A stretch of 64,000 nucleotides of DNA from an uncultured Myxococcaceae bacterium (GTDB lineage: Bacteria; Myxococcota; UBA727; JABDBI01), in NCBI GenBank assembly GCA_964635635.1, contig CAZWPE010000002.1, positions 22,312 to 86,311 on the forward strand. The letters run 5' to 3'. This document shows, one piece after another, positions 1,831 through 10,148 of the stretch. The position numbers and the translations under genes were made by a program. The notes beneath the pieces are model-generated. The model was given only the letters and a program-made list of their open reading frames with translations. It had not been told where the DNA came from and did no database searches. How positions within the stretch are numbered: position 1 is the first letter of the stretch; every line of letters begins with the position of its first letter.

Positions 1831-2334
1831 TTGTATCTTATGGATAAGGGTGTTTTGCCTAAAAATGCTTATTTGGACAGTTTGGACGAATTGAATCTAG
1901 TGCATGGATTCACAGATAGACACTTGCAAACTTTTGGGCCTGCGATGACGATTTATGGCGATGGCAGTAAAATTAACATTTTATCAGCGAAGGAACCTGT
2001 GATTGGAGCGTTGGTTAGATTTTGTGCTCAAAATGATCAGGACCCATTACTGGCAAATCAAAGTTGGATAGAGGGTGTGGTTAAAAAATGGTTTGAATAC
2101 AAGGGTTCAGGAGCAGGGCCGATGAGTTCGGTGAGTGCTAGCGGATTTGTGAAATTTTTGACTGGAACTGGGTTATCAGTTAATAAGAAAGATTGTCAGG
2201 ATGCGTTGGGAGTAGGATCCAAGTATTTTACGTTAAAGAGTGAAGCAACAGTGGGTAGCGTGGCAAGAAGTATGAGTTTGGTGGTTCGTGTCGATAAAAG
2301 CGGGCTACAGCGGTTCTATTTTAGAGGTCAGTGA
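1831..2334 (+). CDS. gspK: GspK-like C-terminal portion (same frame as 1096..1794; first ATG after the amber stop)
   Basis: Frame is identical (1096 and 1831 are both 1 mod 3). No other stops lie between 1795 and 1830. Downstream gene overlaps its stop. Confidence 0.4.
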   Translation: MYLMDKGVLPKNAYLDSLDELNLVHGFTDRHLQTFGPAMTIYGDGSKINILSAKEPVIGALVRFCAQNDQDPLLANQSWIEGVVKKWFEYKGSGAGPMSSVSASGFVKFLTGTGLSVNKKDCQDALGVGSKYFTLKSEATVGSVARSMSLVVRVDKSGLQRFYFRGQ

Positions 2335-3671
2335 GTATGGCAAAAAAGACAATTGGGCTCGATATTGGGAATCGATACATCAAAGTAGTGCACCTTGAAG
2401 GCTCTGAAGTTCTAAGAACTCATGAGGTTCCCTATTCAGAAGAAGCACTCGCGTCTTTAAAAGAAGCCGGCCTGCTGGGTGGAGATGTACAGGTTACAGG
2501 TCTTGCTGGCGCAGATGCCCAAGTCCGTTCACTGGATGTTCCATTTTCAAATACCAAAAAAATAGCGGCTATTTTGGGTGGCTTGCTCGATGCACAATTG
2601 CCGCTGGAGATAGAGGATCTTGAAGTATCTTGGTTTCTGCAAACAGAAAAAACAGACCCTCAACAAAAAATTTCTGCAGCCTTCGCCAAGAAATCTGCGA
2701 TAGGGGGTCTTCTTGAGCGCTTGACCTCAGTAGGCATCAACCCTCAGATTATTACCTTAAGGGCAGCAGCGCTTTATGAACTCATGAAACGTGAGCTCAC
2801 AGAACCGGCAACAGCGATGATTGTGGATATCGGAGACGAAAGCACCAGCTGGTGTTTGGGAACAGATAAGCACCTATTGCTTGCGCGTTCGGTATTGAAG
2901 TCCGATGCAGCGTCCGTTTTGAGGGAGTTGCGTCAAACGCTAATTGCTTTTGAGAAGCCTGTAGATAAAATATTTTTAGTTGGTTCTGGCGCATTAACTC
3001 CAGAAATTGAACCAGAGCTATCACGAGTGATGGGGGTTCCCGTCACAGCTCTTCAACCACTCGGATTGTCCCCGACCTTTGCAATAGCGGCTAGCTACGC
3101 TTTGATCGGTCAAACTCGAACAGAAAAACTCAACCGCTTCAATCTACGCATTGGTGAATTTGCGTTCAAATCTGAGATGAAATTTGCCACAGAAAGAACG
3201 AAAACTTTCGGGATTTGGGCTGCAGTCGTTTTAGTTCTATTGACCGTCAACTATGGTGCGAGGCGTTATTTTTTAGGGTCACGCATTGATGACTTGAGGG
3301 CCTCAGAAGCTAAAGTATGTGCCCAGGTGATGGGCGACACAAAATCTAAGAGCTGTTTGTCGGCGATGAAAAAAGCTATTGCTCAGGGCAAGCAAGATGC
3401 AATCCCCGATATGAGTGCTACGGATATCTATTTAGAAATCGCTAAAGACTTGCCAACTGATATGAAGTTAAAAGTGACTAGCCTTGATATCGGCAATGAT
3501 GGAGTTCGTATGTCGGGTGATGTGACAGATTTTGAATCTGTTGATTCAGTAGTATCAGCCCTTTCAAAAGGACGCTGCTTTAAGAAGGTTGAGAAAGGAC
3601 CAGCCAGACAGTCTCAGTCAGGGGTGAGTTTCCAGGTGTCGATGGATATTGATTGCGGGAGTGCATCATGA
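2331..3671 (+). CDS. gspL: GspL/PilM-like secretion assembly protein with an actin-like ATPase fold
   Basis: N-terminus KKTIGLDIGNRYIKVVHLEG resembles PilM/GspL. A TM segment lies near residue 300. Follows gspK and overlaps its stop. Confidence 0.45.
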   Translation: MSMAKKTIGLDIGNRYIKVVHLEGSEVLRTHEVPYSEEALASLKEAGLLGGDVQVTGLAGADAQVRSLDVPFSNTKKIAAILGGLLDAQLPLEIEDLEVSWFLQTEKTDPQQKISAAFAKKSAIGGLLERLTSVGINPQIITLRAAALYELMKRELTEPATAMIVDIGDESTSWCLGTDKHLLLARSVLKSDAASVLRELRQTLIAFEKPVDKIFLVGSGALTPEIEPELSRVMGVPVTALQPLGLSPTFAIAASYALIGQTRTEKLNRFNLRIGEFAFKSEMKFATERTKTFGIWAAVVLVLLTVNYGARRYFLGSRIDDLRASEAKVCAQVMGDTKSKSCLSAMKKAIAQGKQDAIPDMSATDIYLEIAKDLPTDMKLKVTSLDIGNDGVRMSGDVTDFESVDSVVSALSKGRCFKKVEKGPARQSQSGVSFQVSMDIDCGSAS

Positions 3672-4217: not shown

Positions 4218-5114
4218 GTGAAAAAGCTTCTATATATTGCGTTCTTTTTCTTTGCATTTGTTGTCTCGTTCTATTTGACGTTTCCCGCAGATGCCTTAAG
4301 GCCAATGCTTGAAACACAAATGGCCTCTGGAATGGGTCCTGGTTCCAGTGTTCATATCGGGCATTTGTCTTTGTGGCGTTTGTCCGGTGTGTCCATGAGC
4401 GAAATGGAATTCCATATGCAGAATCAGTCATTCAAGCTTGCCGAGCTGAAGCTACGTTTTGGAATCTGGAGTACACTTAAAGGTTACCCAAAAATTATTT
4501 TTGACACCCATGTCTATGATGGCCGTGCCAGTGGTTTTGTAACCATGAATCCAAAGGGTGGACTCTCGGCGCTGAATCTGGATATTTCAAAAATCAATTT
4601 GGCAAAGATTGCTGAACCTGGTGCTGAAGGTGGTCTTAAAATGACTGGCTTGATGAATGTTAATGTGGACTTAAATCTTGGGGCAAATCCAGCCAAAGAT
4701 GGCTCTGGTAATCTGAACCTTGATTTTAAGAACCTTTCGATGGGTCCAGGGCCGATGCCTATTCCTGGAAGCTTCGGGGGTACGATGACGATTCCAGAGA
4801 TTAAATTAGGAGCATTCTCAGGAAAAGGCTCATTTGCGAAAGGCAAAGCTAATATCAAAGATCTCAAACTTGCAGGCGGCGATGTTGAGGCTCATATCAA
4901 TGCTGATATCGAGCTGTCTGATAACGTCTTGTTTAGTCCGCTTAAGGGTAATGGTTGGTTCAGGCTAAAATCCGAGTTCCAAAAAGCCAACCCCAAAATC
5001 GCCATGCTGCTTGAGCTCAGCCCTGATATTAAGGCTGCAGAGGAGTCAGACGGCCGTATTCACTTTAGCCTAATTGGAAGCTTGATGGCACCAACTCCTA
5101 AGTGGGGTAGATAA
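4218..5114 (+). CDS. GspN-like secretion protein
   Basis: N-terminal TM helix (LLYIAFFFFAFVVSFYL), then a Gly-rich periplasmic domain. Last gene of the gsp-like block. Confidence 0.3.
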   Translation: MKKLLYIAFFFFAFVVSFYLTFPADALRPMLETQMASGMGPGSSVHIGHLSLWRLSGVSMSEMEFHMQNQSFKLAELKLRFGIWSTLKGYPKIIFDTHVYDGRASGFVTMNPKGGLSALNLDISKINLAKIAEPGAEGGLKMTGLMNVNVDLNLGANPAKDGSGNLNLDFKNLSMGPGPMPIPGSFGGTMTIPEIKLGAFSGKGSFAKGKANIKDLKLAGGDVEAHINADIELSDNVLFSPLKGNGWFRLKSEFQKANPKIAMLLELSPDIKAAEESDGRIHFSLIGSLMAPTPKWGR

Positions 5115-6873
5115 AGCTTAGAGTTAGCATTGAGAGCATATAGGCGCTGATGCGCCAAGAAACTCCAAATGTGCTTAAATCATCGCCAGGTGTGGCTTCA
5201 TCATCTCGTTGTCCCCAGAATGTTCTGGAGTATGAGCGCATCAAGGCGATGCCATTAATCACAAAGATAATATTAAAGGCGATCAAAAAAAGCATGCCCT
5301 GACTTAGAGCAGCTTGGATTAGCATATCTTCACCGAGAAAAGTGAGCGATATCGGAAATCCAAGTATGCCTAGTACTCCAATTAAGGTGATTGAACTGGC
5401 AAATGGGAATCTGGCAAAGCTTATGGAGACTTGTCTTTTAATCACCTGAAGGCTTTCAAAGGCGAATAGCCATGAGACCAAGAGCCCTGATATGTAAAAA
5501 TATTGATTACTAGGCCACAGGGCAAATGCGACACAAAGATTCGAAAGCAACGACCAATTGATGTTTTGTTGAAGACGAGAGTTCGGCGAAAGTGTTCTCA
5601 GACACCAAATAAAACTCGGAATCAGGAGCCAAGATGGATTAATATATGCCAATGGGAAGAATACCAATGGCAACCACCAACGTAGCGCATATGCTTTCTG
5701 ACTGAGGTATCGAACAGGTGAGGTGACTGCGAGAATCAAAGTTTCTAAGTAGCCCTCATTAAGTCCAAAGATGTATAGTGCGGTGCTTCGTGGGTTCCAA
5801 GTTTTAATGCTTTTGCCTTCGAGAGCATGATGAATATGAAGCTGGTCAGCCTGAACAGATGGAGAATATAAAAGCTGAAAGCAGCGCAGAATGGCATTAA
5901 AAACCATATGGGCCATCGCAAGTTTCGGGAATCCTAAGGCAAGCTCAATGAGCATGACACCTACTTGTGCAATCGATGCATACCCAATCTGTCCCTTAAT
6001 ATTGGATTGTACGCGTCCTGATAGAGAACAAACCACGAAGGTTGACAGTCCAATGCCACCTACAATCCATGGGAATCCAAGCGTGCTATGCCAAATTGGA
6101 TAGACGCGGAGCAGCAAAAAAACACCTGCATGGACCGAGAGAGCACCATAAAAAATTGCGCTCGAGGGTGTTGGGCCTTCCATGGCCTTGGGAAGCCAGT
6201 AGCAAAATGGAAACTGGGCTGATTTCCCAATGACAGGAAGCATAATCACAAGGCTAATGGCCCATTGCTCGATCAGTGGAACTGACGACCATTGATGTGT
6301 AAACATTTCATGATCATGCCAAATGAGTTCTGAGATAAGTGCACTCGCTAGGAGCCCAACATCGCAAAATCGATACACGTAAAAAGCTCTGTTTGCGCTT
6401 TCAATAGCTGAAGGTCGATGCCAGTAGAATGCAATCAGTAAAAATGATGATAGACCCACAAATTCCCAACCTGCAAAAAGAAGAACAAAATTGCCCGCTG
6501 TGGCAATGATTGTCATTCCTGCTGCAAAAATTGATAAAATCATAAAAAATCGACGATACCCGGGATCTCGGTGCAAATATCTTCGCGAAAAATAGATGAT
6601 AATATTCGCTGTGAAGGCAATCAGCATGAGTAAAATGATGCCAGTCCAATCAACGAGTAAACTCCCGAATCGAATTTGATTACCATTATGTTGAGCAAAT
6701 TGTAGCGCTAGAATAAGCGTCGCTATTAAATAAATTCCAAATCCAATTTGAGCAATACTGGCAATCAATTGTTCGTCAGGTTTCTTACGAGAGATAGATT
6801 TAAGTGCGAGTATGATTGCTACAGCAACGGGTGCTGTGAAACTCAAGTAGAGAAGTTGTTCTATGATAACCAC
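5098..6873 (-). CDS. dabB: DabB: NuoL/MnhA-family proton-conducting membrane subunit of a DAB inorganic-carbon pump
   Basis: 591-aa polytopic membrane protein of complex I subunit L / Mrp antiporter type. Overlaps the upstream DUF2309 gene by 13 nt. Confidence 0.6.
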   Translation of the reverse strand: MVIIEQLLYLSFTAPVAVAIILALKSISRKKPDEQLIASIAQIGFGIYLIATLILALQFAQHNGNQIRFGSLLVDWTGIILLMLIAFTANIIIYFSRRYLHRDPGYRRFFMILSIFAAGMTIIATAGNFVLLFAGWEFVGLSSFLLIAFYWHRPSAIESANRAFYVYRFCDVGLLASALISELIWHDHEMFTHQWSSVPLIEQWAISLVIMLPVIGKSAQFPFCYWLPKAMEGPTPSSAIFYGALSVHAGVFLLLRVYPIWHSTLGFPWIVGGIGLSTFVVCSLSGRVQSNIKGQIGYASIAQVGVMLIELALGFPKLAMAHMVFNAILRCFQLLYSPSVQADQLHIHHALEGKSIKTWNPRSTALYIFGLNEGYLETLILAVTSPVRYLSQKAYALRWWLPLVFFPLAYINPSWLLIPSFIWCLRTLSPNSRLQQNINWSLLSNLCVAFALWPSNQYFYISGLLVSWLFAFESLQVIKRQVSISFARFPFASSITLIGVLGILGFPISLTFLGEDMLIQAALSQGMLFLIAFNIIFVINGIALMRSYSRTFWGQRDDEATPGDDLSTFGVSWRISAYMLSMLTLSFIYPT

Positions 6874-8846
6874 TGTACCTCCCAGTTAGTGGGATCAATG
6901 CTGGCCATCGCAATCCATTTGTTTTGAACCCATTGATGGATGGCCGGGTTTTTTTCAAGAACGCTTTGCACAACATCGTGTTTTTGAAATACGATGACAC
7001 ATAATCGAATCAAGTCATGCATTTCTGTCATCTGGACGGGCAATCCAGTTCTTAGGTCGTCATCTACTCCGTTATAGACGCCCAGAAGTGCTGCGATGTT
7101 GTGGGAAAGTTTTGTTCCAGAGCCATAGACCCATGGACAGAATTTGGAGAAATAATAATCTAGGTTAATCCCGGCACACACTGGGACTGCTGCACTCAGA
7201 ACTGAGTCTAGGATTTCGCCGTTTGGATCTAAACCTGGTTCGTAGGAGTTCAAGAAAGCCCTTCTTTCGAGTGAAAGTCCATTGGTTAGATACCTGGGGC
7301 CTACAATGCACAGCGCATTTTTTGCATGACCTAACTCGGGTCTGGGTTCAAACAAAGCTCTGGAGCGATGTCTTACCTCTTTGAGTGCATCGGCAGGAGC
7401 AATATTCATAGGAACAACCTCAAACATGCTGCATCTTTCCTGTGCGTTTTGGGCTCTTGCTAGATCCAAATTCTCCATCTGTGAGTTGCTTAATGGATTC
7501 GTTTCTAAAAAGATGAAATCATCCGTGCATGTATCGTGATAAGCGGGATAGAAACGAGTTCTTGGTGGAATCGTTAAACCCAATCTTTCAACGCGTTGTC
7601 TGACTTCAGGGATATTCGCCATTTGTGAAAACGCTCTCGCATTCGGAGCACCAGGATTTCCTGAGCAAGCACCGCATCCATAAGCAGCAAAGTAAGGATT
7701 ATTGACACTGCTTGAACCATGGGCAGTAATAATTACGGTGCTTGCGAAGTAGCGCATGCCCATTTGATTTAAAACGCTGAACACCCGATGTGCCATGTCA
7801 TCGAGTGAGTAGTGACTTAAGTCAAGTTCTGTGGGGACCTCAATAAATTCTTTACGAGTAAGGACAAAACCAAGCCAATGTCTGAGGCGCTCAGAGATAG
7901 TGGCCATTCTAAGTTGCTTTCTCTTTTGTGAATCATAATCTGTTAAATGTTCTGGATGAGGGCGCTCATGGACATGACGGTGAACACTTAATGGGGCGGG
8001 TGCAAGTTTTCGAGGAGATGAATCATTGAGAGACTGAAACATCATATCAATGCCAAAGTAACCAGCAGTTGAGAGGGTTTCTAGGCCAGATTCTAAAGCT
8101 TCCCAGTGCCTTCTGAAAGAACACTCACGATCATCGATGCAAAATATTGCCTGAATCTCGGGTGTATTTTCTGAGTTAACGCTGTTTTTTCGAAGAACAA
8201 TTTGGTCAATAACACCGTCGTAATATGCCTTTTCATTCGTTTTTTGATTGATTGGTATTTCGGATGGAGGATGTGCCTGCTGGGGCAAGTCCTTAAAACC
8301 GTACTCAGATTCTAGGATGAGTTTGAATGCTAGAAATTCAATTAACTTGATGGGCCTTGGCTTTAATAAATAATGGGGATTTTTTTCGAGTTGATTGACC
8401 ATTCCGGACCAGCCAGGATGTGCCATGAGTGTGGTTTCAATATGTTTCTGATCGAGATTAAATTGATTTAAGATTTTTTCTATGACTGCAAGGGGATCTT
8501 GTTGAAGCCAACCTAAAACACGCTTTCGTTTCGCATAAGGTGCAATTGGCAGCCAAGACGCACGTTGGAGCTCATGTAAGGACTCCCAGTAGCTTACTTT
8601 AAGTGTAGGAAACGTCCATGTTCCAATCCCTTGATCTAGGTAATTAGCTGTAATGCGAAACAAGGTCTGATGGACTGGGGCTGTAATCGGTTCGCGGTAA
8701 AATTTAGAAGCTTCACGCAATGCATCTTCAAAATGTAGATGTTGAAATGCATAGAGAATATTAATGTGAATAAAATCCTTCATCGGCGCTTGCCCTGGCA
8801 GGCGCTGGCTGATGGATTCAAGAGCTTCTTTAAGCTTCGTCTTCAT
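6861..8846 (-). CDS. dabA: DabA (DUF2309/UPF0753) inorganic-carbon transporter subunit
   Basis: Soluble 661-aa protein with FCIDDRE (beta-carbonic-anhydrase-like CxDxR) and TAHGSSSVNNPYFAAYGC (His and Cys 15 residues apart, as in the DabA zinc site). N-terminus LPGQAPMKDFIHINILYAFQ is typical of the family. Coupled to a NuoL-like gene. Confidence 0.65.
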   Translation of the reverse strand: MKTKLKEALESISQRLPGQAPMKDFIHINILYAFQHLHFEDALREASKFYREPITAPVHQTLFRITANYLDQGIGTWTFPTLKVSYWESLHELQRASWLPIAPYAKRKRVLGWLQQDPLAVIEKILNQFNLDQKHIETTLMAHPGWSGMVNQLEKNPHYLLKPRPIKLIEFLAFKLILESEYGFKDLPQQAHPPSEIPINQKTNEKAYYDGVIDQIVLRKNSVNSENTPEIQAIFCIDDRECSFRRHWEALESGLETLSTAGYFGIDMMFQSLNDSSPRKLAPAPLSVHRHVHERPHPEHLTDYDSQKRKQLRMATISERLRHWLGFVLTRKEFIEVPTELDLSHYSLDDMAHRVFSVLNQMGMRYFASTVIITAHGSSSVNNPYFAAYGCGACSGNPGAPNARAFSQMANIPEVRQRVERLGLTIPPRTRFYPAYHDTCTDDFIFLETNPLSNSQMENLDLARAQNAQERCSMFEVVPMNIAPADALKEVRHRSRALFEPRPELGHAKNALCIVGPRYLTNGLSLERRAFLNSYEPGLDPNGEILDSVLSAAVPVCAGINLDYYFSKFCPWVYGSGTKLSHNIAALLGVYNGVDDDLRTGLPVQMTEMHDLIRLCVIVFQKHDVVQSVLEKNPAIHQWVQNKWIAMASIDPTNWEVQWLS

Positions 8847-10104
8847 AGCTGGCTTCTGCTGGAATTGGCCTTACAGCATAGGGAGTATAATCGAGGACTG
8901 ATTTGATTATCAATCCTGAGAGTACCCCAATCAACAGGTCCACTTTGAGTGTAATCAAAAGCGTTGTCAAGAATACAATCAATGTTGGGACTCCAAGGCT
9001 ATACATATGAGCGAACGCTTTGGGAGATGCAAGCCTGAGGCCTGTAATAATCAGCAATGCAGCGAGTGCTGATAGTGGGATCAAATGAATGACCGGTGTC
9101 AATAGTGTGACAGCTACCAATATGAATATGCCATGATAGAAATTTGAAAACCTACTTTGGGCGCCAGCATCGATGTTAGCTTTACTCCTAACAACTTCTG
9201 AGATCATGGGGAGACCGCCAATCATGCTAGAACAAAAGTTCGCGACACCGACTGCAAATAAATCTCGGTCTAAACTGGCTTTTTTATCGACAGCCATGAC
9301 CGTGAGAAGGGACTCAAGGCTTCCAATTAGAGCAAGCATGATGATGTATTTCCAAGCGATTGGATTACCTAAAGCGCTGAAGTCTGGAAGCGTAATTGAA
9401 CTTAGAAAATTTGCAGGAAGCGTGACGAGAAATTGGGGCCCAACTTCGAATCGTTGTCCCTCGAACCAATAAAAATGGTCTAGATCTAAGTGCCAGTACA
9501 TCGCCAAGGGCAAAACAAACAAAAGTGATGTGAGGGCAGGGGGGATTTTTTTAAGGATAGAGCTTGGGAGTAGCGGGTAAAACCATACTGTCATGAGCGT
9601 TACCATGCCAATGGCTAGGATTTCCGGATTACTGTTAGCGATGCTGTGTGGAACTTCGGCGAGAAGCTGAAGGGGAGTTTTGCTACTAGGCAATACGCCA
9701 AGCATAATATGGAGCTGCTTGGCGATAATAATAATGCCAATAGCAGCGAGCATACCTTCGACAACAGGGACAGGAACATATCTGGCAATTTTCCCTGCTC
9801 CCAATCTTGAGAAGATGATTTGAATCAGGGCTGCCATCACACCGACTGCTAGACATTTTTCGTAACCCAATTCTTGGACAGCACCTAGAATGATAACGAT
9901 TAAACCTGCTGCGGGGCCTTTAATTGTCAGAGGCGATCCACCCAGAATTGTTGGGATAATACCTCCAACAATTGCCGTAATCAGGCCTGCCATCGGGGGG
10001 AATCCGCTGGCCATAGCAATCCCTAGGCAAAGCGGTAGAGCAATCAAAAAAACCAAAAATCCGGAACGAAGATCTGCCATAGGATTACCTCTCCAAGGGA
10101 ACAA
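8830..10104 (-). CDS. SulP-family anion transporter without a STAS domain
   Basis: 424-aa polytopic membrane protein with the SulP signature region (LIALPLCLGIAMASG, GPAAGLIVII). Ends right after the membrane domain with no C-terminal STAS. Overlaps the dabA start by 17 nt. Confidence 0.55.
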   Translation of the reverse strand: MFPWRGNPMADLRSGFLVFLIALPLCLGIAMASGFPPMAGLITAIVGGIIPTILGGSPLTIKGPAAGLIVIILGAVQELGYEKCLAVGVMAALIQIIFSRLGAGKIARYVPVPVVEGMLAAIGIIIIAKQLHIMLGVLPSSKTPLQLLAEVPHSIANSNPEILAIGMVTLMTVWFYPLLPSSILKKIPPALTSLLFVLPLAMYWHLDLDHFYWFEGQRFEVGPQFLVTLPANFLSSITLPDFSALGNPIAWKYIIMLALIGSLESLLTVMAVDKKASLDRDLFAVGVANFCSSMIGGLPMISEVVRSKANIDAGAQSRFSNFYHGIFILVAVTLLTPVIHLIPLSALAALLIITGLRLASPKAFAHMYSLGVPTLIVFLTTLLITLKVDLLIGVLSGLIIKSVLDYTPYAVRPIPAEASYEDEA

Positions 10105-10148
10105 TCCGCCAGTGGCCTAATATTTCAATTATGATATAGTCCTCAGCT

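What the first reader, a model, noticed from the sequence alone, without database searches (positions are those of the whole stretch)
5098..10104. Translationally coupled SulP - DabA - DabB operon: a putative dual inorganic-carbon uptake module in a non-autotroph
The DUF2309 protein has the beta-CA-like CxDxR (FCIDDRE) motif and a His-x15-Cys pair that match the zinc site described for DabA. It overlaps a NuoL/MnhA-type membrane subunit (DabB) by 13 nt. The upstream gene, which overlaps the dabA start by 17 nt, is a STAS-less SulP-family transporter; SulP includes BicA-type bicarbonate transporters. All three genes on one coupled transcript suggest a combined bicarbonate/CO2 acquisition unit, unusual for a presumably heterotrophic or predatory bacterium. 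The DabA is short (661 aa) relative to characterised homologues.
Basis: partly seen in the sequence, partly recalled or inferred. Interest (0 to 1): 0.55.

Follow-up and report, generated by a model that had tools for sequence, protein, structure and literature searches.

The report
SulP–DabA–DabB inorganic-carbon operon, minimal form
Three overlapping genes encode an energy-coupled CO2-hydrating complex (DabA/DabB) and an anion transporter that travels with it in many bacterial phyla; this copy is a rare stripped-down version lacking the membrane "finger" that couples the two Dab subunits in the only solved structure.

Summary
The minus strand carries sulP (8830-10080, 416 aa, no STAS), dabA (6861-8846, 661 aa) and dabB (5098-6873, 591 aa). 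They overlap by 17 and 13 nt. All structurally proven DabA zinc and catalytic residues are conserved.

- A DAB in a heterotroph is already known, and the three-gene layout is not unusual. A SulP homologue lies beside dabAB in 46 of 80 species-level loci, in three arrangements. Four of four SulP relatives picked blind sit directly upstream of dabA.
- I found no paper describing this linkage.
- The SulP is not BicA-type. It belongs to a DAB-associated subfamily with its own invariant signature, and its substrate is unproven.

The shortness of DabA comes from four clean deletions. One removes most of the membrane-inserted helix-loop-helix "finger", whose Glu444 is essential in H. neapolitanus DAB2. 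Only six such proteins turned up among the 120 best hits from 5.8 billion clusters. All three genes are under strong purifying selection (dN/dS about 0.05).

Best reading: a conserved CO2/bicarbonate acquisition operon supplying bicarbonate to a probably heterotrophic, Myxococcota-affiliated bacterium, in a minimised form with altered DabA-DabB coupling. This is a new variant of a known kind, of moderate interest.

The parts
8830..10080 (-). sulP: 416-aa SulP/SLC26 transmembrane domain without a STAS domain; member of a DAB-associated SulP subfamily
   Evidence: PF00916 171 bits, no STAS. Start ATG 10080. The closest homologues lie on the same contigs as DabA homologues. TM8 GSLESLLT and TM10 ISEVVRSKAN; Glu, Glu and Arg invariant in 53 DAB-linked SulPs.
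10088..10094 (-). Shine-Dalgarno-like GGAGAGG, 7 nt upstream of the sulP ATG
   Evidence: Read directly from the sequence.
10081..10148 (.). 68-nt divergent intergenic region between sulP and hisS; the only non-coding DNA upstream of the operon, so the presumed promoter region
   Evidence: hisS identified by TIGR00442 at 443 bits. The sigma-70 scan found no site here.
6861..8846 (-). dabA: 661-aa minimal DabA (beta-carbonic-anhydrase-like cytoplasmic subunit)
   Evidence: PF10070 551.6 bits. PDB 9rd0_A DabA2, E 7e-52. The N-terminus aligns with homologues from residue about 4, so the ATG at 8846 is the real start. dN/dS 0.046 against the 85% relative.
8127..8141 (-). Codons for C236-I-D238-D-R240 (zinc ligand Cys plus the Asp-Arg dyad)
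   Evidence: Align with DabA2 C351/D353/R355. Invariant in 89 of 89 DabAs from the fetched loci.
7674..7721 (-). Codons for H376 to C391 (second and third zinc ligands)
   Evidence: Align with DabA2 H524/C539. Invariant.
7860..7955 (-). Remnant of the DabA finger motif: residues 298-329, predicted as one long helix instead of a helix-loop-helix
   Evidence: About 32 aa are deleted relative to all long relatives. The span E294 to M351 is 57 aa, against 85-101 aa in 81 other DabAs. AlphaFold gives a single helix 298-329, against two helices 386-410 and 413-436 in the finger-bearing control P0007. The Glu444 column is Leu.
5098..6873 (-). dabB: 591-aa NuoL/MnhA-type membrane subunit
   Evidence: PF00361 and PF00662. 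PDB 9rd0_B DabB2, E 3.5e-27. GTG start at the same position as the ATG of the 85% relative. dN/dS 0.063.
6878..6883 (-). Shine-Dalgarno GGGAGG for dabB, inside the end of dabA
   Evidence: Read directly from the sequence.
5101..5208 (-). C-terminal extension of DabB (about residues 556-591) with a moderately hydrophobic 21-residue stretch, FGVSWRISAYMLSMLTLSFIY
   Evidence: In the 16-sequence alignment it is present only in the DabBs of the window clade and its sister groups (L086, L087, L001, L004, L002, L005). It is absent from the 10 other DabBs aligned.

Best explanation
This is a three-gene, translationally coupled operon for acquiring inorganic carbon. It sits in an uncultured, probably heterotrophic, Myxococcota-affiliated bacterium.

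DabA and DabB form a membrane complex. DabA, a zinc enzyme resembling beta-carbonic anhydrase, hydrates CO2 that has diffused into the cell. DabB, a NuoL-like cation channel, makes the reaction one-way by coupling it to the ion gradient. Bicarbonate therefore accumulates for the bicarbonate-using carboxylases of central metabolism.

The SulP protein belongs to a subfamily that accompanies dabAB across many phyla. It most likely moves bicarbonate, or exchanges it, across the same membrane, so the cell can draw on both CO2 and HCO3-.

This copy is a minimised derivative:
- SulP has lost its STAS domain.
- DabA has lost about 190 residues, including most of the membrane-inserted finger.
- Coupling between DabA and DabB must therefore work differently from H. 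neapolitanus DAB2.

Shown here: gene identities, catalytic residues, overlaps, conservation of the linkage, the deletions and purifying selection. Inferred: the SulP substrate and direction, complex formation, and the physiological role.
For: Identity of the parts:
- Pfam and PDB matches.
- Zinc ligands, the Asp-Arg dyad and Ala376 are all conserved and are functionally validated in DAB2.

Operon structure:
- Overlaps of 17 and 13 nt are repeated in relatives: 17/13, 14/4 and 31/4 nt.

Linkage of SulP to dabAB:
- sulP-dabA-dabB is present in all five relatives of the short clade and its sister.
- A SulP homologue lies beside dabAB in 46 of 80 GTDB species loci, in three different arrangements.
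- Four of four blind-picked SulP homologues lie directly upstream of dabA, including one in a cultured planctomycete.
- The SulP subfamily has an invariant signature that distinguishes it from CA-fused SulPs and from BicA.
- SulP-STAS-beta-CA fusion genes lie next to the operon in two relatives.

Function and role:
- dN/dS of 0.046 and 0.063 shows both Dab genes are functional; for sulP, dN is 0.058 but dS is saturated, so no ratio could be computed.
- The role in heterotrophs follows Desmarais et al. and the MpsAB work.
Against: - No experiment shows that any member of this SulP subfamily carries bicarbonate.
- Its TM10 Arg and TM8 Glu resemble proton-coupled sulfate or dicarboxylate SLC26 proteins more than BicA.
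- It is below the cut-off of every NCBIfam equivalog.
- The finger and Glu444, essential in DAB2, are missing. Energy coupling could therefore be lost or different.
- The organism's metabolism is unknown, because only 64 kb were examined.
- 34 of 80 dabAB loci show no SulP nearby, although several of these are cut at contig ends.
Confidence: 0.6

Rival explanations
1. An acid-loading or anion-exchange module. DabAB hydrates CO2 to H+ and HCO3- in the cytoplasm, and SulP exports the bicarbonate or exchanges it for another anion. The net effect would be proton retention (alkaline pH homeostasis) or bicarbonate-gradient-driven anion uptake, as with carbonic anhydrase plus SLC26/SLC4 exchangers in animal epithelia.
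For: The SulP has sulfate-type TM10 Arg and TM8 Glu rather than the BicA sodium site. DabB is related to Mrp antiporters, which act in pH homeostasis. The tight linkage in heterotrophs across phyla does not indicate a direction of transport.
Against: Characterised DAB and MpsAB systems rescue CO2-dependent growth by supplying bicarbonate. Exporting the product would defeat this. There is no direct evidence for exchange.
Confidence: 0.15
2. SulP transports an unrelated anion (sulfate, a dicarboxylate or similar). It is co-transcribed with dabAB without taking part in inorganic-carbon handling.
For: The best NCBIfam scores are DauA (153 bits) and the generic sulP model (141 bits), above BicA at 105 bits. 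The PDB similarity to the fumarate transporter SLC26Dg equals that to BicA, at 75 against 77 bits.
Against: Linkage is kept in three different gene orders over at least five phyla. The closest SulP homologues are consistently beside dabA. The subfamily has its own invariant motif. CA-fused SulPs lie next door in two relatives.
Confidence: 0.15
3. The fingerless DabA is no longer gated by DabB. It acts as an ordinary reversible carbonic anhydrase held at the membrane, feeding or draining the SulP transporter as a transport metabolon. DabB would be only an anchor or an independent cation channel.
For: The finger hairpin is deleted and there is no acidic residue at the Glu444 column. AlphaFold predicts a single helix. 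By offset arithmetic, DabB keeps the NuoL-type Glu (E137) where DabB2 has Ile151.
Against: dabB is retained, translationally coupled and under purifying selection (dN/dS 0.063). Its conserved channel residues (GWE, RxxD, GKSAQ) are intact. Long relatives that keep the finger also lack Glu at that column, so Glu444 may simply not be universal.
Confidence: 0.1

Closest known systems
DAB2 (DabA2/DabB2) of Halothiobacillus neapolitanus, PDB 9rd0/9rd8/9rd9
   Same: The same two protein families, encoded by adjacent genes. DabA zinc ligands Cys/His/Cys, the Asp-Arg dyad and Ala376 are conserved. DabB is NuoL-like with conserved channel motifs.
   Different: - DabA is 661 aa against 827 aa.
- The N-terminal domain is about 115 aa shorter before the catalytic Cys.
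- The finger hairpin is reduced to one helix, and the Glu444 column is Leu.
- DabB keeps Glu at the Ile151 position; this rests on offset arithmetic and is an inference.
- DabB has a C-terminal extension.
- An upstream SulP gene is part of the operon.
- The host is not a known autotroph.
MpsAB of Staphylococcus aureus (DAB homologue in a heterotroph)
   Same: A DabB-like plus DabA-like pair that supplies dissolved inorganic carbon to a non-autotroph and can replace carbonic anhydrase.
   Different: From my own knowledge, the gene order is mpsA (the DabB-like gene) first. The searched papers report no SulP partner. No sequence comparison was made here.
BicA (SulP-type Na+/HCO3- symporter of cyanobacteria, PDB 6KI1)
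   Same: The same SLC26/SulP 7+7 transmembrane fold family. It is the best PDB hit at 77 bits. The acidic residue and the Thr on TM8 are kept: Asp258 aligns with Glu, and Thr262 with Thr.
   Different: There is no STAS domain. Thr302 aligns with Val. TM10 reads ISEVVRSKAN with an Arg, where BicA has GATMGTVVN. The NCBIfam BicA score is 105 against a cut-off of 880.
SulP-carbonic anhydrase fusion proteins (SulP-STAS-Pro_CA)
   Same: They pair a SulP transporter with a beta-CA-type enzyme, here by operon rather than by fusion. Such fusions lie directly beside the operon in relatives L001 and L004.
   Different: They belong to a different SulP subfamily (about 160 bits to the window SulP; TM10 reads TGVIVRSATN). 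They keep the STAS domain, and their CA is a canonical Pro_CA rather than DabA. The window has no such gene.

Membership tests
DAB (DabA/DabB) inorganic-carbon pump | Cytoplasmic subunit with the PF10070 (DUF2309/DabA) domain | tested here: met
   551.6 bits against a cut-off of 25. 9rd0_A, E 7e-52.
DAB (DabA/DabB) inorganic-carbon pump | Zinc site Cys351/His524/Cys539 and the Asp353-Arg355 dyad | tested here: met
   C236, H376, C391, D238 and R240 align with these residues. Invariant in 89 of 89 related DabAs.
DAB (DabA/DabB) inorganic-carbon pump | Adjacent PF00361 membrane subunit (DabB) in the same operon | tested here: met
   PF00361 and PF00662. 13-nt overlap with dabA. 9rd0_B, E 3.5e-27.
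DAB (DabA/DabB) inorganic-carbon pump | Membrane-inserted finger (alpha16/alpha17 helix-loop-helix) of DabA carrying the essential Glu444 | tested here: not met
   About 32 aa are deleted. A single helix is predicted, against a hairpin in the control. The Glu444 column is Leu. This feature is defined from one structure only. Long relatives of this branch also lack the Glu.
DAB (DabA/DabB) inorganic-carbon pump | DabB2-type loss of the second NuoL ion pair (Ile151 in place of Glu) | tested here: not met
   Window DabB has GWE with E137. From the aligned ranges (query 71-357 against chain 85-373), E137 falls on position 151 and D171 on Asp185. This rests on offset arithmetic, not a residue-level alignment.
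DAB (DabA/DabB) inorganic-carbon pump | Energy-coupled DIC accumulation or rescue of CA-free E. coli | not testable with these tools
   Requires an experiment.
BicA-type bicarbonate transporter (SulP family) | NCBIfam equivalog NF050096 at or above its cut-off | tested here: not met
   105.2 bits against a cut-off of 880.
BicA-type bicarbonate transporter (SulP family) | Sodium/substrate-site residues Asp258, Thr262 and Thr302 | tested here: not met
   They align with Glu, Thr and Val respectively.
SulP/SLC26 family | PF00916 transmembrane domain | tested here: met
   171 bits, profile positions 3-370 of 380.
SulP/SLC26 family | C-terminal STAS domain | tested here: not met
   No STAS hit. The protein ends about 25 aa after the last hydrophobic segment, and dabA starts there. 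Relatives of about 520 aa keep a short STAS-like domain.
Single operon (co-transcription of sulP, dabA and dabB) | Same strand, overlapping stop and start codons, no terminator between genes, arrangement conserved in relatives | tested here: met
   Transcription itself was not tested.

The most novel reading that the evidence does not exclude
SulP, DabA and DabB form one three-part machine. In this reading the STAS-less SulP docks onto the cytoplasmic DabA in place of its lost STAS domain. The fingerless DabA is gated through SulP and/or the extra C-terminal helix of DabB, rather than through a DabA finger in the proton path. This would be a natural carbonic anhydrase-SLC26 transport metabolon, with a coupling mechanism different from DAB2.
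Probability: 0.07. Interest if true: 0.8.

Novelty: new variant of a known kind. Interest (0 to 1): 0.5.

Why it matters
- The 2026 DAB2 structure proposes that a DabA finger carrying Glu444 forms part of the proton path and couples ion flow to CO2 hydration. A naturally fingerless DabA that is still under selection, within a large branch that lacks that Glu, tests how general the mechanism is. It also defines a smaller core for engineering.
- The conserved partnership of dabAB with one SulP subfamily across at least five phyla, mostly heterotrophs, points to an undescribed functional unit.
- That partnership also gives a strong genomic handle for assigning a substrate to a large group of uncharacterised SulP transporters.

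Tried and rejected
- A Foldseek search of the DabA model against the PDB copy found nothing above noise. That library evidently does not yet hold 9rd0.
- I tried to obtain the DabB2 sequence through a closer DabB query, but Complex I subunits outranked it and no alignment was printed. The Ile151/Glu comparison rests on coordinate offsets only.
- The Rfam gathering scan of the whole window found nothing.
- The promoter scan found no site in the sulP-hisS intergenic region. Terminator-like hits are at chance level.
Taxonomy was inferred from Mfd homologues.
- A tblastn search of the window with a CA-fused SulP found no carbonic-anhydrase domain in it.
- I considered and rejected the idea that the short DabA is an assembly or frameshift artefact. 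The same in-frame deletions occur in six independent sequences, and dN/dS is 0.046.
- I rejected the TTG start of sulP at 10104.
Full report
**1. What is in the sequence**

The minus strand of 5098-10104 holds three consecutive ORFs.
- The 661-aa product matches Pfam PF10070 DabA at 551.6 bits.
- The 591-aa product matches PF00361 and PF00662, the NuoL/MnhA-type membrane subunit families.
- The upstream product matches PF00916 (SulP) only, with no STAS domain.
- No NCBIfam equivalog is reached. For the SulP the scores are DauA 153/614, the generic sulP model 141/380 and BicA 105/880.

- The dabA ATG at 8846 lies 17 nt inside sulP.
- The dabB GTG at 6873, preceded by GGGAGG, lies 13 nt inside dabA.

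The sulP start needs correcting. ATG 10080 with GGAGAGG 7 nt upstream gives 416 aa. An independent gene call on a second assembly of the same locus agrees.

Upstream lies a 68-nt divergent intergenic region, then hisS. Downstream, a Leptospira-type gspN converges on dabB and overlaps its end. No terminator-like feature separates the three genes, and such features in the region occur at chance frequency.

**2. DabA is a genuine DabA, but a stripped one**

The PDB now holds H. neapolitanus DabA2 (9rd0), and the window protein matches it at E 7e-52. The accompanying paper gives the reference features:
- zinc ligands Cys351, His524 and Cys539, and the Asp353-Arg355 dyad;
- a 280-residue helical N-terminal domain;
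- a membrane-inserted "finger-like" helix-loop-helix (alpha16/alpha17), whose Glu444 replaces NuoL Lys399/Asp400 in the proton path. E444A and E444Q abolish activity.

I reconstructed residues 327-615 of DabA2 from a printed alignment and aligned them with the window protein and 19 homologues.
- C236, D238, R240, A261, H376 and C391 match C351, D353, R355, A376, H524 and C539.
- The CDRHCC pattern is invariant in all 89 DabAs from the loci I fetched.

The shortness has a precise anatomy. There are four clean deletions relative to the typical 800-950-aa relatives:
- one in the N-terminal domain;
- one before the first CA-like domain;
- loss of the C-terminal tail;
- a deletion of about 32 residues that removes part of alpha16 and all of alpha17.

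The finger deletion is well supported.
- The span between the invariant E294 and M351 is 57 residues here and in three close relatives.
- It is 68 residues in a sister group, and 85-101 in all 81 other DabAs.
- AlphaFold (pLDDT 76.5) predicts one long helix at 298-329. A matched control on the finger-bearing relative P0007 predicts two helices, 386-410 and 413-436.
- The Glu444 column is Leu in the window. It is Ala, Val, Ser, Ile, Leu or Phe in all 19 relatives, including those with a full finger. This whole branch therefore lacks that Glu; the alignment in this segment is less certain than elsewhere.

Short forms are rare. Six of the 120 best hits, out of 3709 homologues in a 5.8-billion-cluster database, are 649-727 aa long. 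They are not artefacts. The deletions are in frame in six independent sequences, and dN/dS against the 85% relative is 0.046.

**3. DabB**

DabB matches Complex I NuoL/ND5 chains and DabB2. The conserved channel motifs are present: GWE (E137), RxxD (R168, D171) and GKSAQ (K217).

By coordinate offset, E137 falls on DabB2 position 151 and D171 on Asp185 (query 71-357 aligned with chain 85-373). The paper reports that DabB2 has Ile151 there and that restoring Glu halves activity. This DabB is therefore more NuoL-like at that site. The point rests on offsets, not on a residue-level alignment.

In the 16-sequence alignment, the DabBs of the window clade and its sisters share a C-terminal extension of about 35 residues with a moderately hydrophobic stretch. 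The other DabBs aligned lack it. Whether it occupies the space vacated by the finger could not be tested. dN/dS for dabB is 0.063.

**4. The SulP travels with dabAB**

All relatives of the short clade and its sister show the same sulP-dabA-dabB order with overlaps or tiny gaps.

The closest SulP homologues in the protein database lie on the same contigs as DabA homologues. At least eleven pairs have matching contig lengths.

Four SulP homologues chosen only for their long contigs all lie directly upstream of dabA-dabB. One is in the cultured planctomycete Poly30.

A scan of one genome per GTDB species returned 80 dabAB loci. In 46 of them a SulP homologue lies within about 1.6 kb:
- 13 directly upstream on the same strand;
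- 19 directly downstream of dabB, mostly in Bacteroidota;
- 9 divergent upstream, mostly in Methylococcales;
- 5 about 1.2-1.5 kb away.

Several of the remaining loci are cut at contig ends. Linkage preserved through three gene orders and at least five phyla argues for a functional tie.

The papers I could search do not mention this linkage.
- The DAB discovery preprint has no occurrence of "SulP".
- The 2024 toolkit review treats DAC and SulP separately.
- Other searches found nothing relevant.

**5. What kind of SulP is it?**

It is not demonstrably BicA-like. The best PDB hit is the BicA transmembrane domain at 77 bits, but the fumarate transporter SLC26Dg scores 75 bits.

At the BicA sodium/substrate site Asp258/Thr262/Thr302, the window protein has Glu, Thr and Val. 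Its TM10 reads ISEVVRSKAN, with an Arg as in SULTR4;1 (SRSAVN) and SLC26A11 (GRTAVN). BicA has MGTVVN and SLC26Dg has GQSMIN.

Across 53 DAB-linked SulPs, the TM8 Glu and the TM10 I[SA]E[VI][VA]RS Glu and Arg are invariant. The CA-fused SulPs next door read TGVIVRSATN.

Most members are about 520-550 aa with a short, weakly detected STAS-like tail. The window protein and about eight close relatives have lost the tail. STAS loss also occurs alongside finger-bearing DabAs (P0126 with P0007, P0172 with P0012), so the two reductions are independent.

**6. Organism and context**

The rest of the window is housekeeping: Mfd, BamA, YidC, a PBP, an oligopeptide ABC system, SMC and T2SS genes.
- Mfd's best named homologues are Myxococcota, Myxococcaceae and "Deltaproteobacteria" MAGs at 64-75% identity.
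- No carbonic-anhydrase domain and no autotrophy gene was seen in the window. However, 64 kb cannot settle the organism's lifestyle.
- DABs in heterotrophs are established knowledge.

**7. Verdict**

- The three genes very probably form one inorganic-carbon module.
- That module is a common, conserved architecture rather than an oddity.
- The BicA analogy is weak.
- The distinctive feature of this copy is its minimisation, above all the loss of the DabA finger.

Most likely mechanism (confidence 0.6): DabAB performs ion-gradient-coupled CO2 hydration and SulP moves bicarbonate, together supplying bicarbonate to a heterotroph's carboxylases.

Rivals are bicarbonate export or exchange for pH or anion balance (0.15), an unrelated SulP substrate (0.15), and an uncoupled membrane-tethered carbonic anhydrase (0.1).

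Classification: a new variant of a known kind. Interest: 0.5.

Noticed in passing
L001:4080-6365 (-) and L004:3327-5657 (-): A SulP-STAS-Pro_CA (beta-carbonic anhydrase) fusion gene of 761-776 aa lies divergently next to the sulP-dabA-dabB operon in two relatives. The window has hisS at that position and no CA domain.
   Followed up: partly
L088:10505-13308 and L089:10384-13039: In the planctomycete Poly30 and one other genome, the DabB position is occupied by two consecutive genes (443+491 aa and 461+425 aa). This suggests a split or two-subunit membrane part.
   Followed up: no
A1/ alignment, DabA2 Glu444 column: All 19 relatives of this DabA branch have a hydrophobic or small residue at the column of the essential Glu444 of H. 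neapolitanus DabA2, including those with a full finger. An Asn or Gln two residues downstream is common.
   Followed up: partly
window 5098-5114: The 3' ends of dabB (minus strand) and a Leptospira-type T2SS gspN (4218-5114, plus strand, TIGR04411 at 142 bits) overlap convergently by 17 nt, with no terminator between them.
   Followed up: no
L005:3706-5986: The dabA of the finger-bearing sister (P0070) is split into two overlapping ORF pieces, and dabB starts about 400 nt later. This is a probable frameshift or assembly error, or a pseudogene.
   Followed up: no
L016:6496-9630 and L041:1470-4883 (-): Some Methylococcales loci carry a second, much longer DabA paralogue (over 1000 aa, DabA1-like length) within a few kb of the first dabAB pair.
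   Followed up: no
window 17476-20424 (-), 20605-22380 (+), 2331-3671 (+): Three large ORFs (982, 591 and 446 aa) have no Pfam match at the thresholds used (1e-5 for the first two, 0.01 for the third).
   Followed up: no
L015:11333-13567, L038:11406-13667, L074:3664-5910 (-), L034:5187-7334: In some Bacteroidota the DAB-linked SulP ORF is 716-754 aa long, with about 200 extra C-terminal residues that have no Pfam match beyond weak STAS hits.
   Followed up: partly
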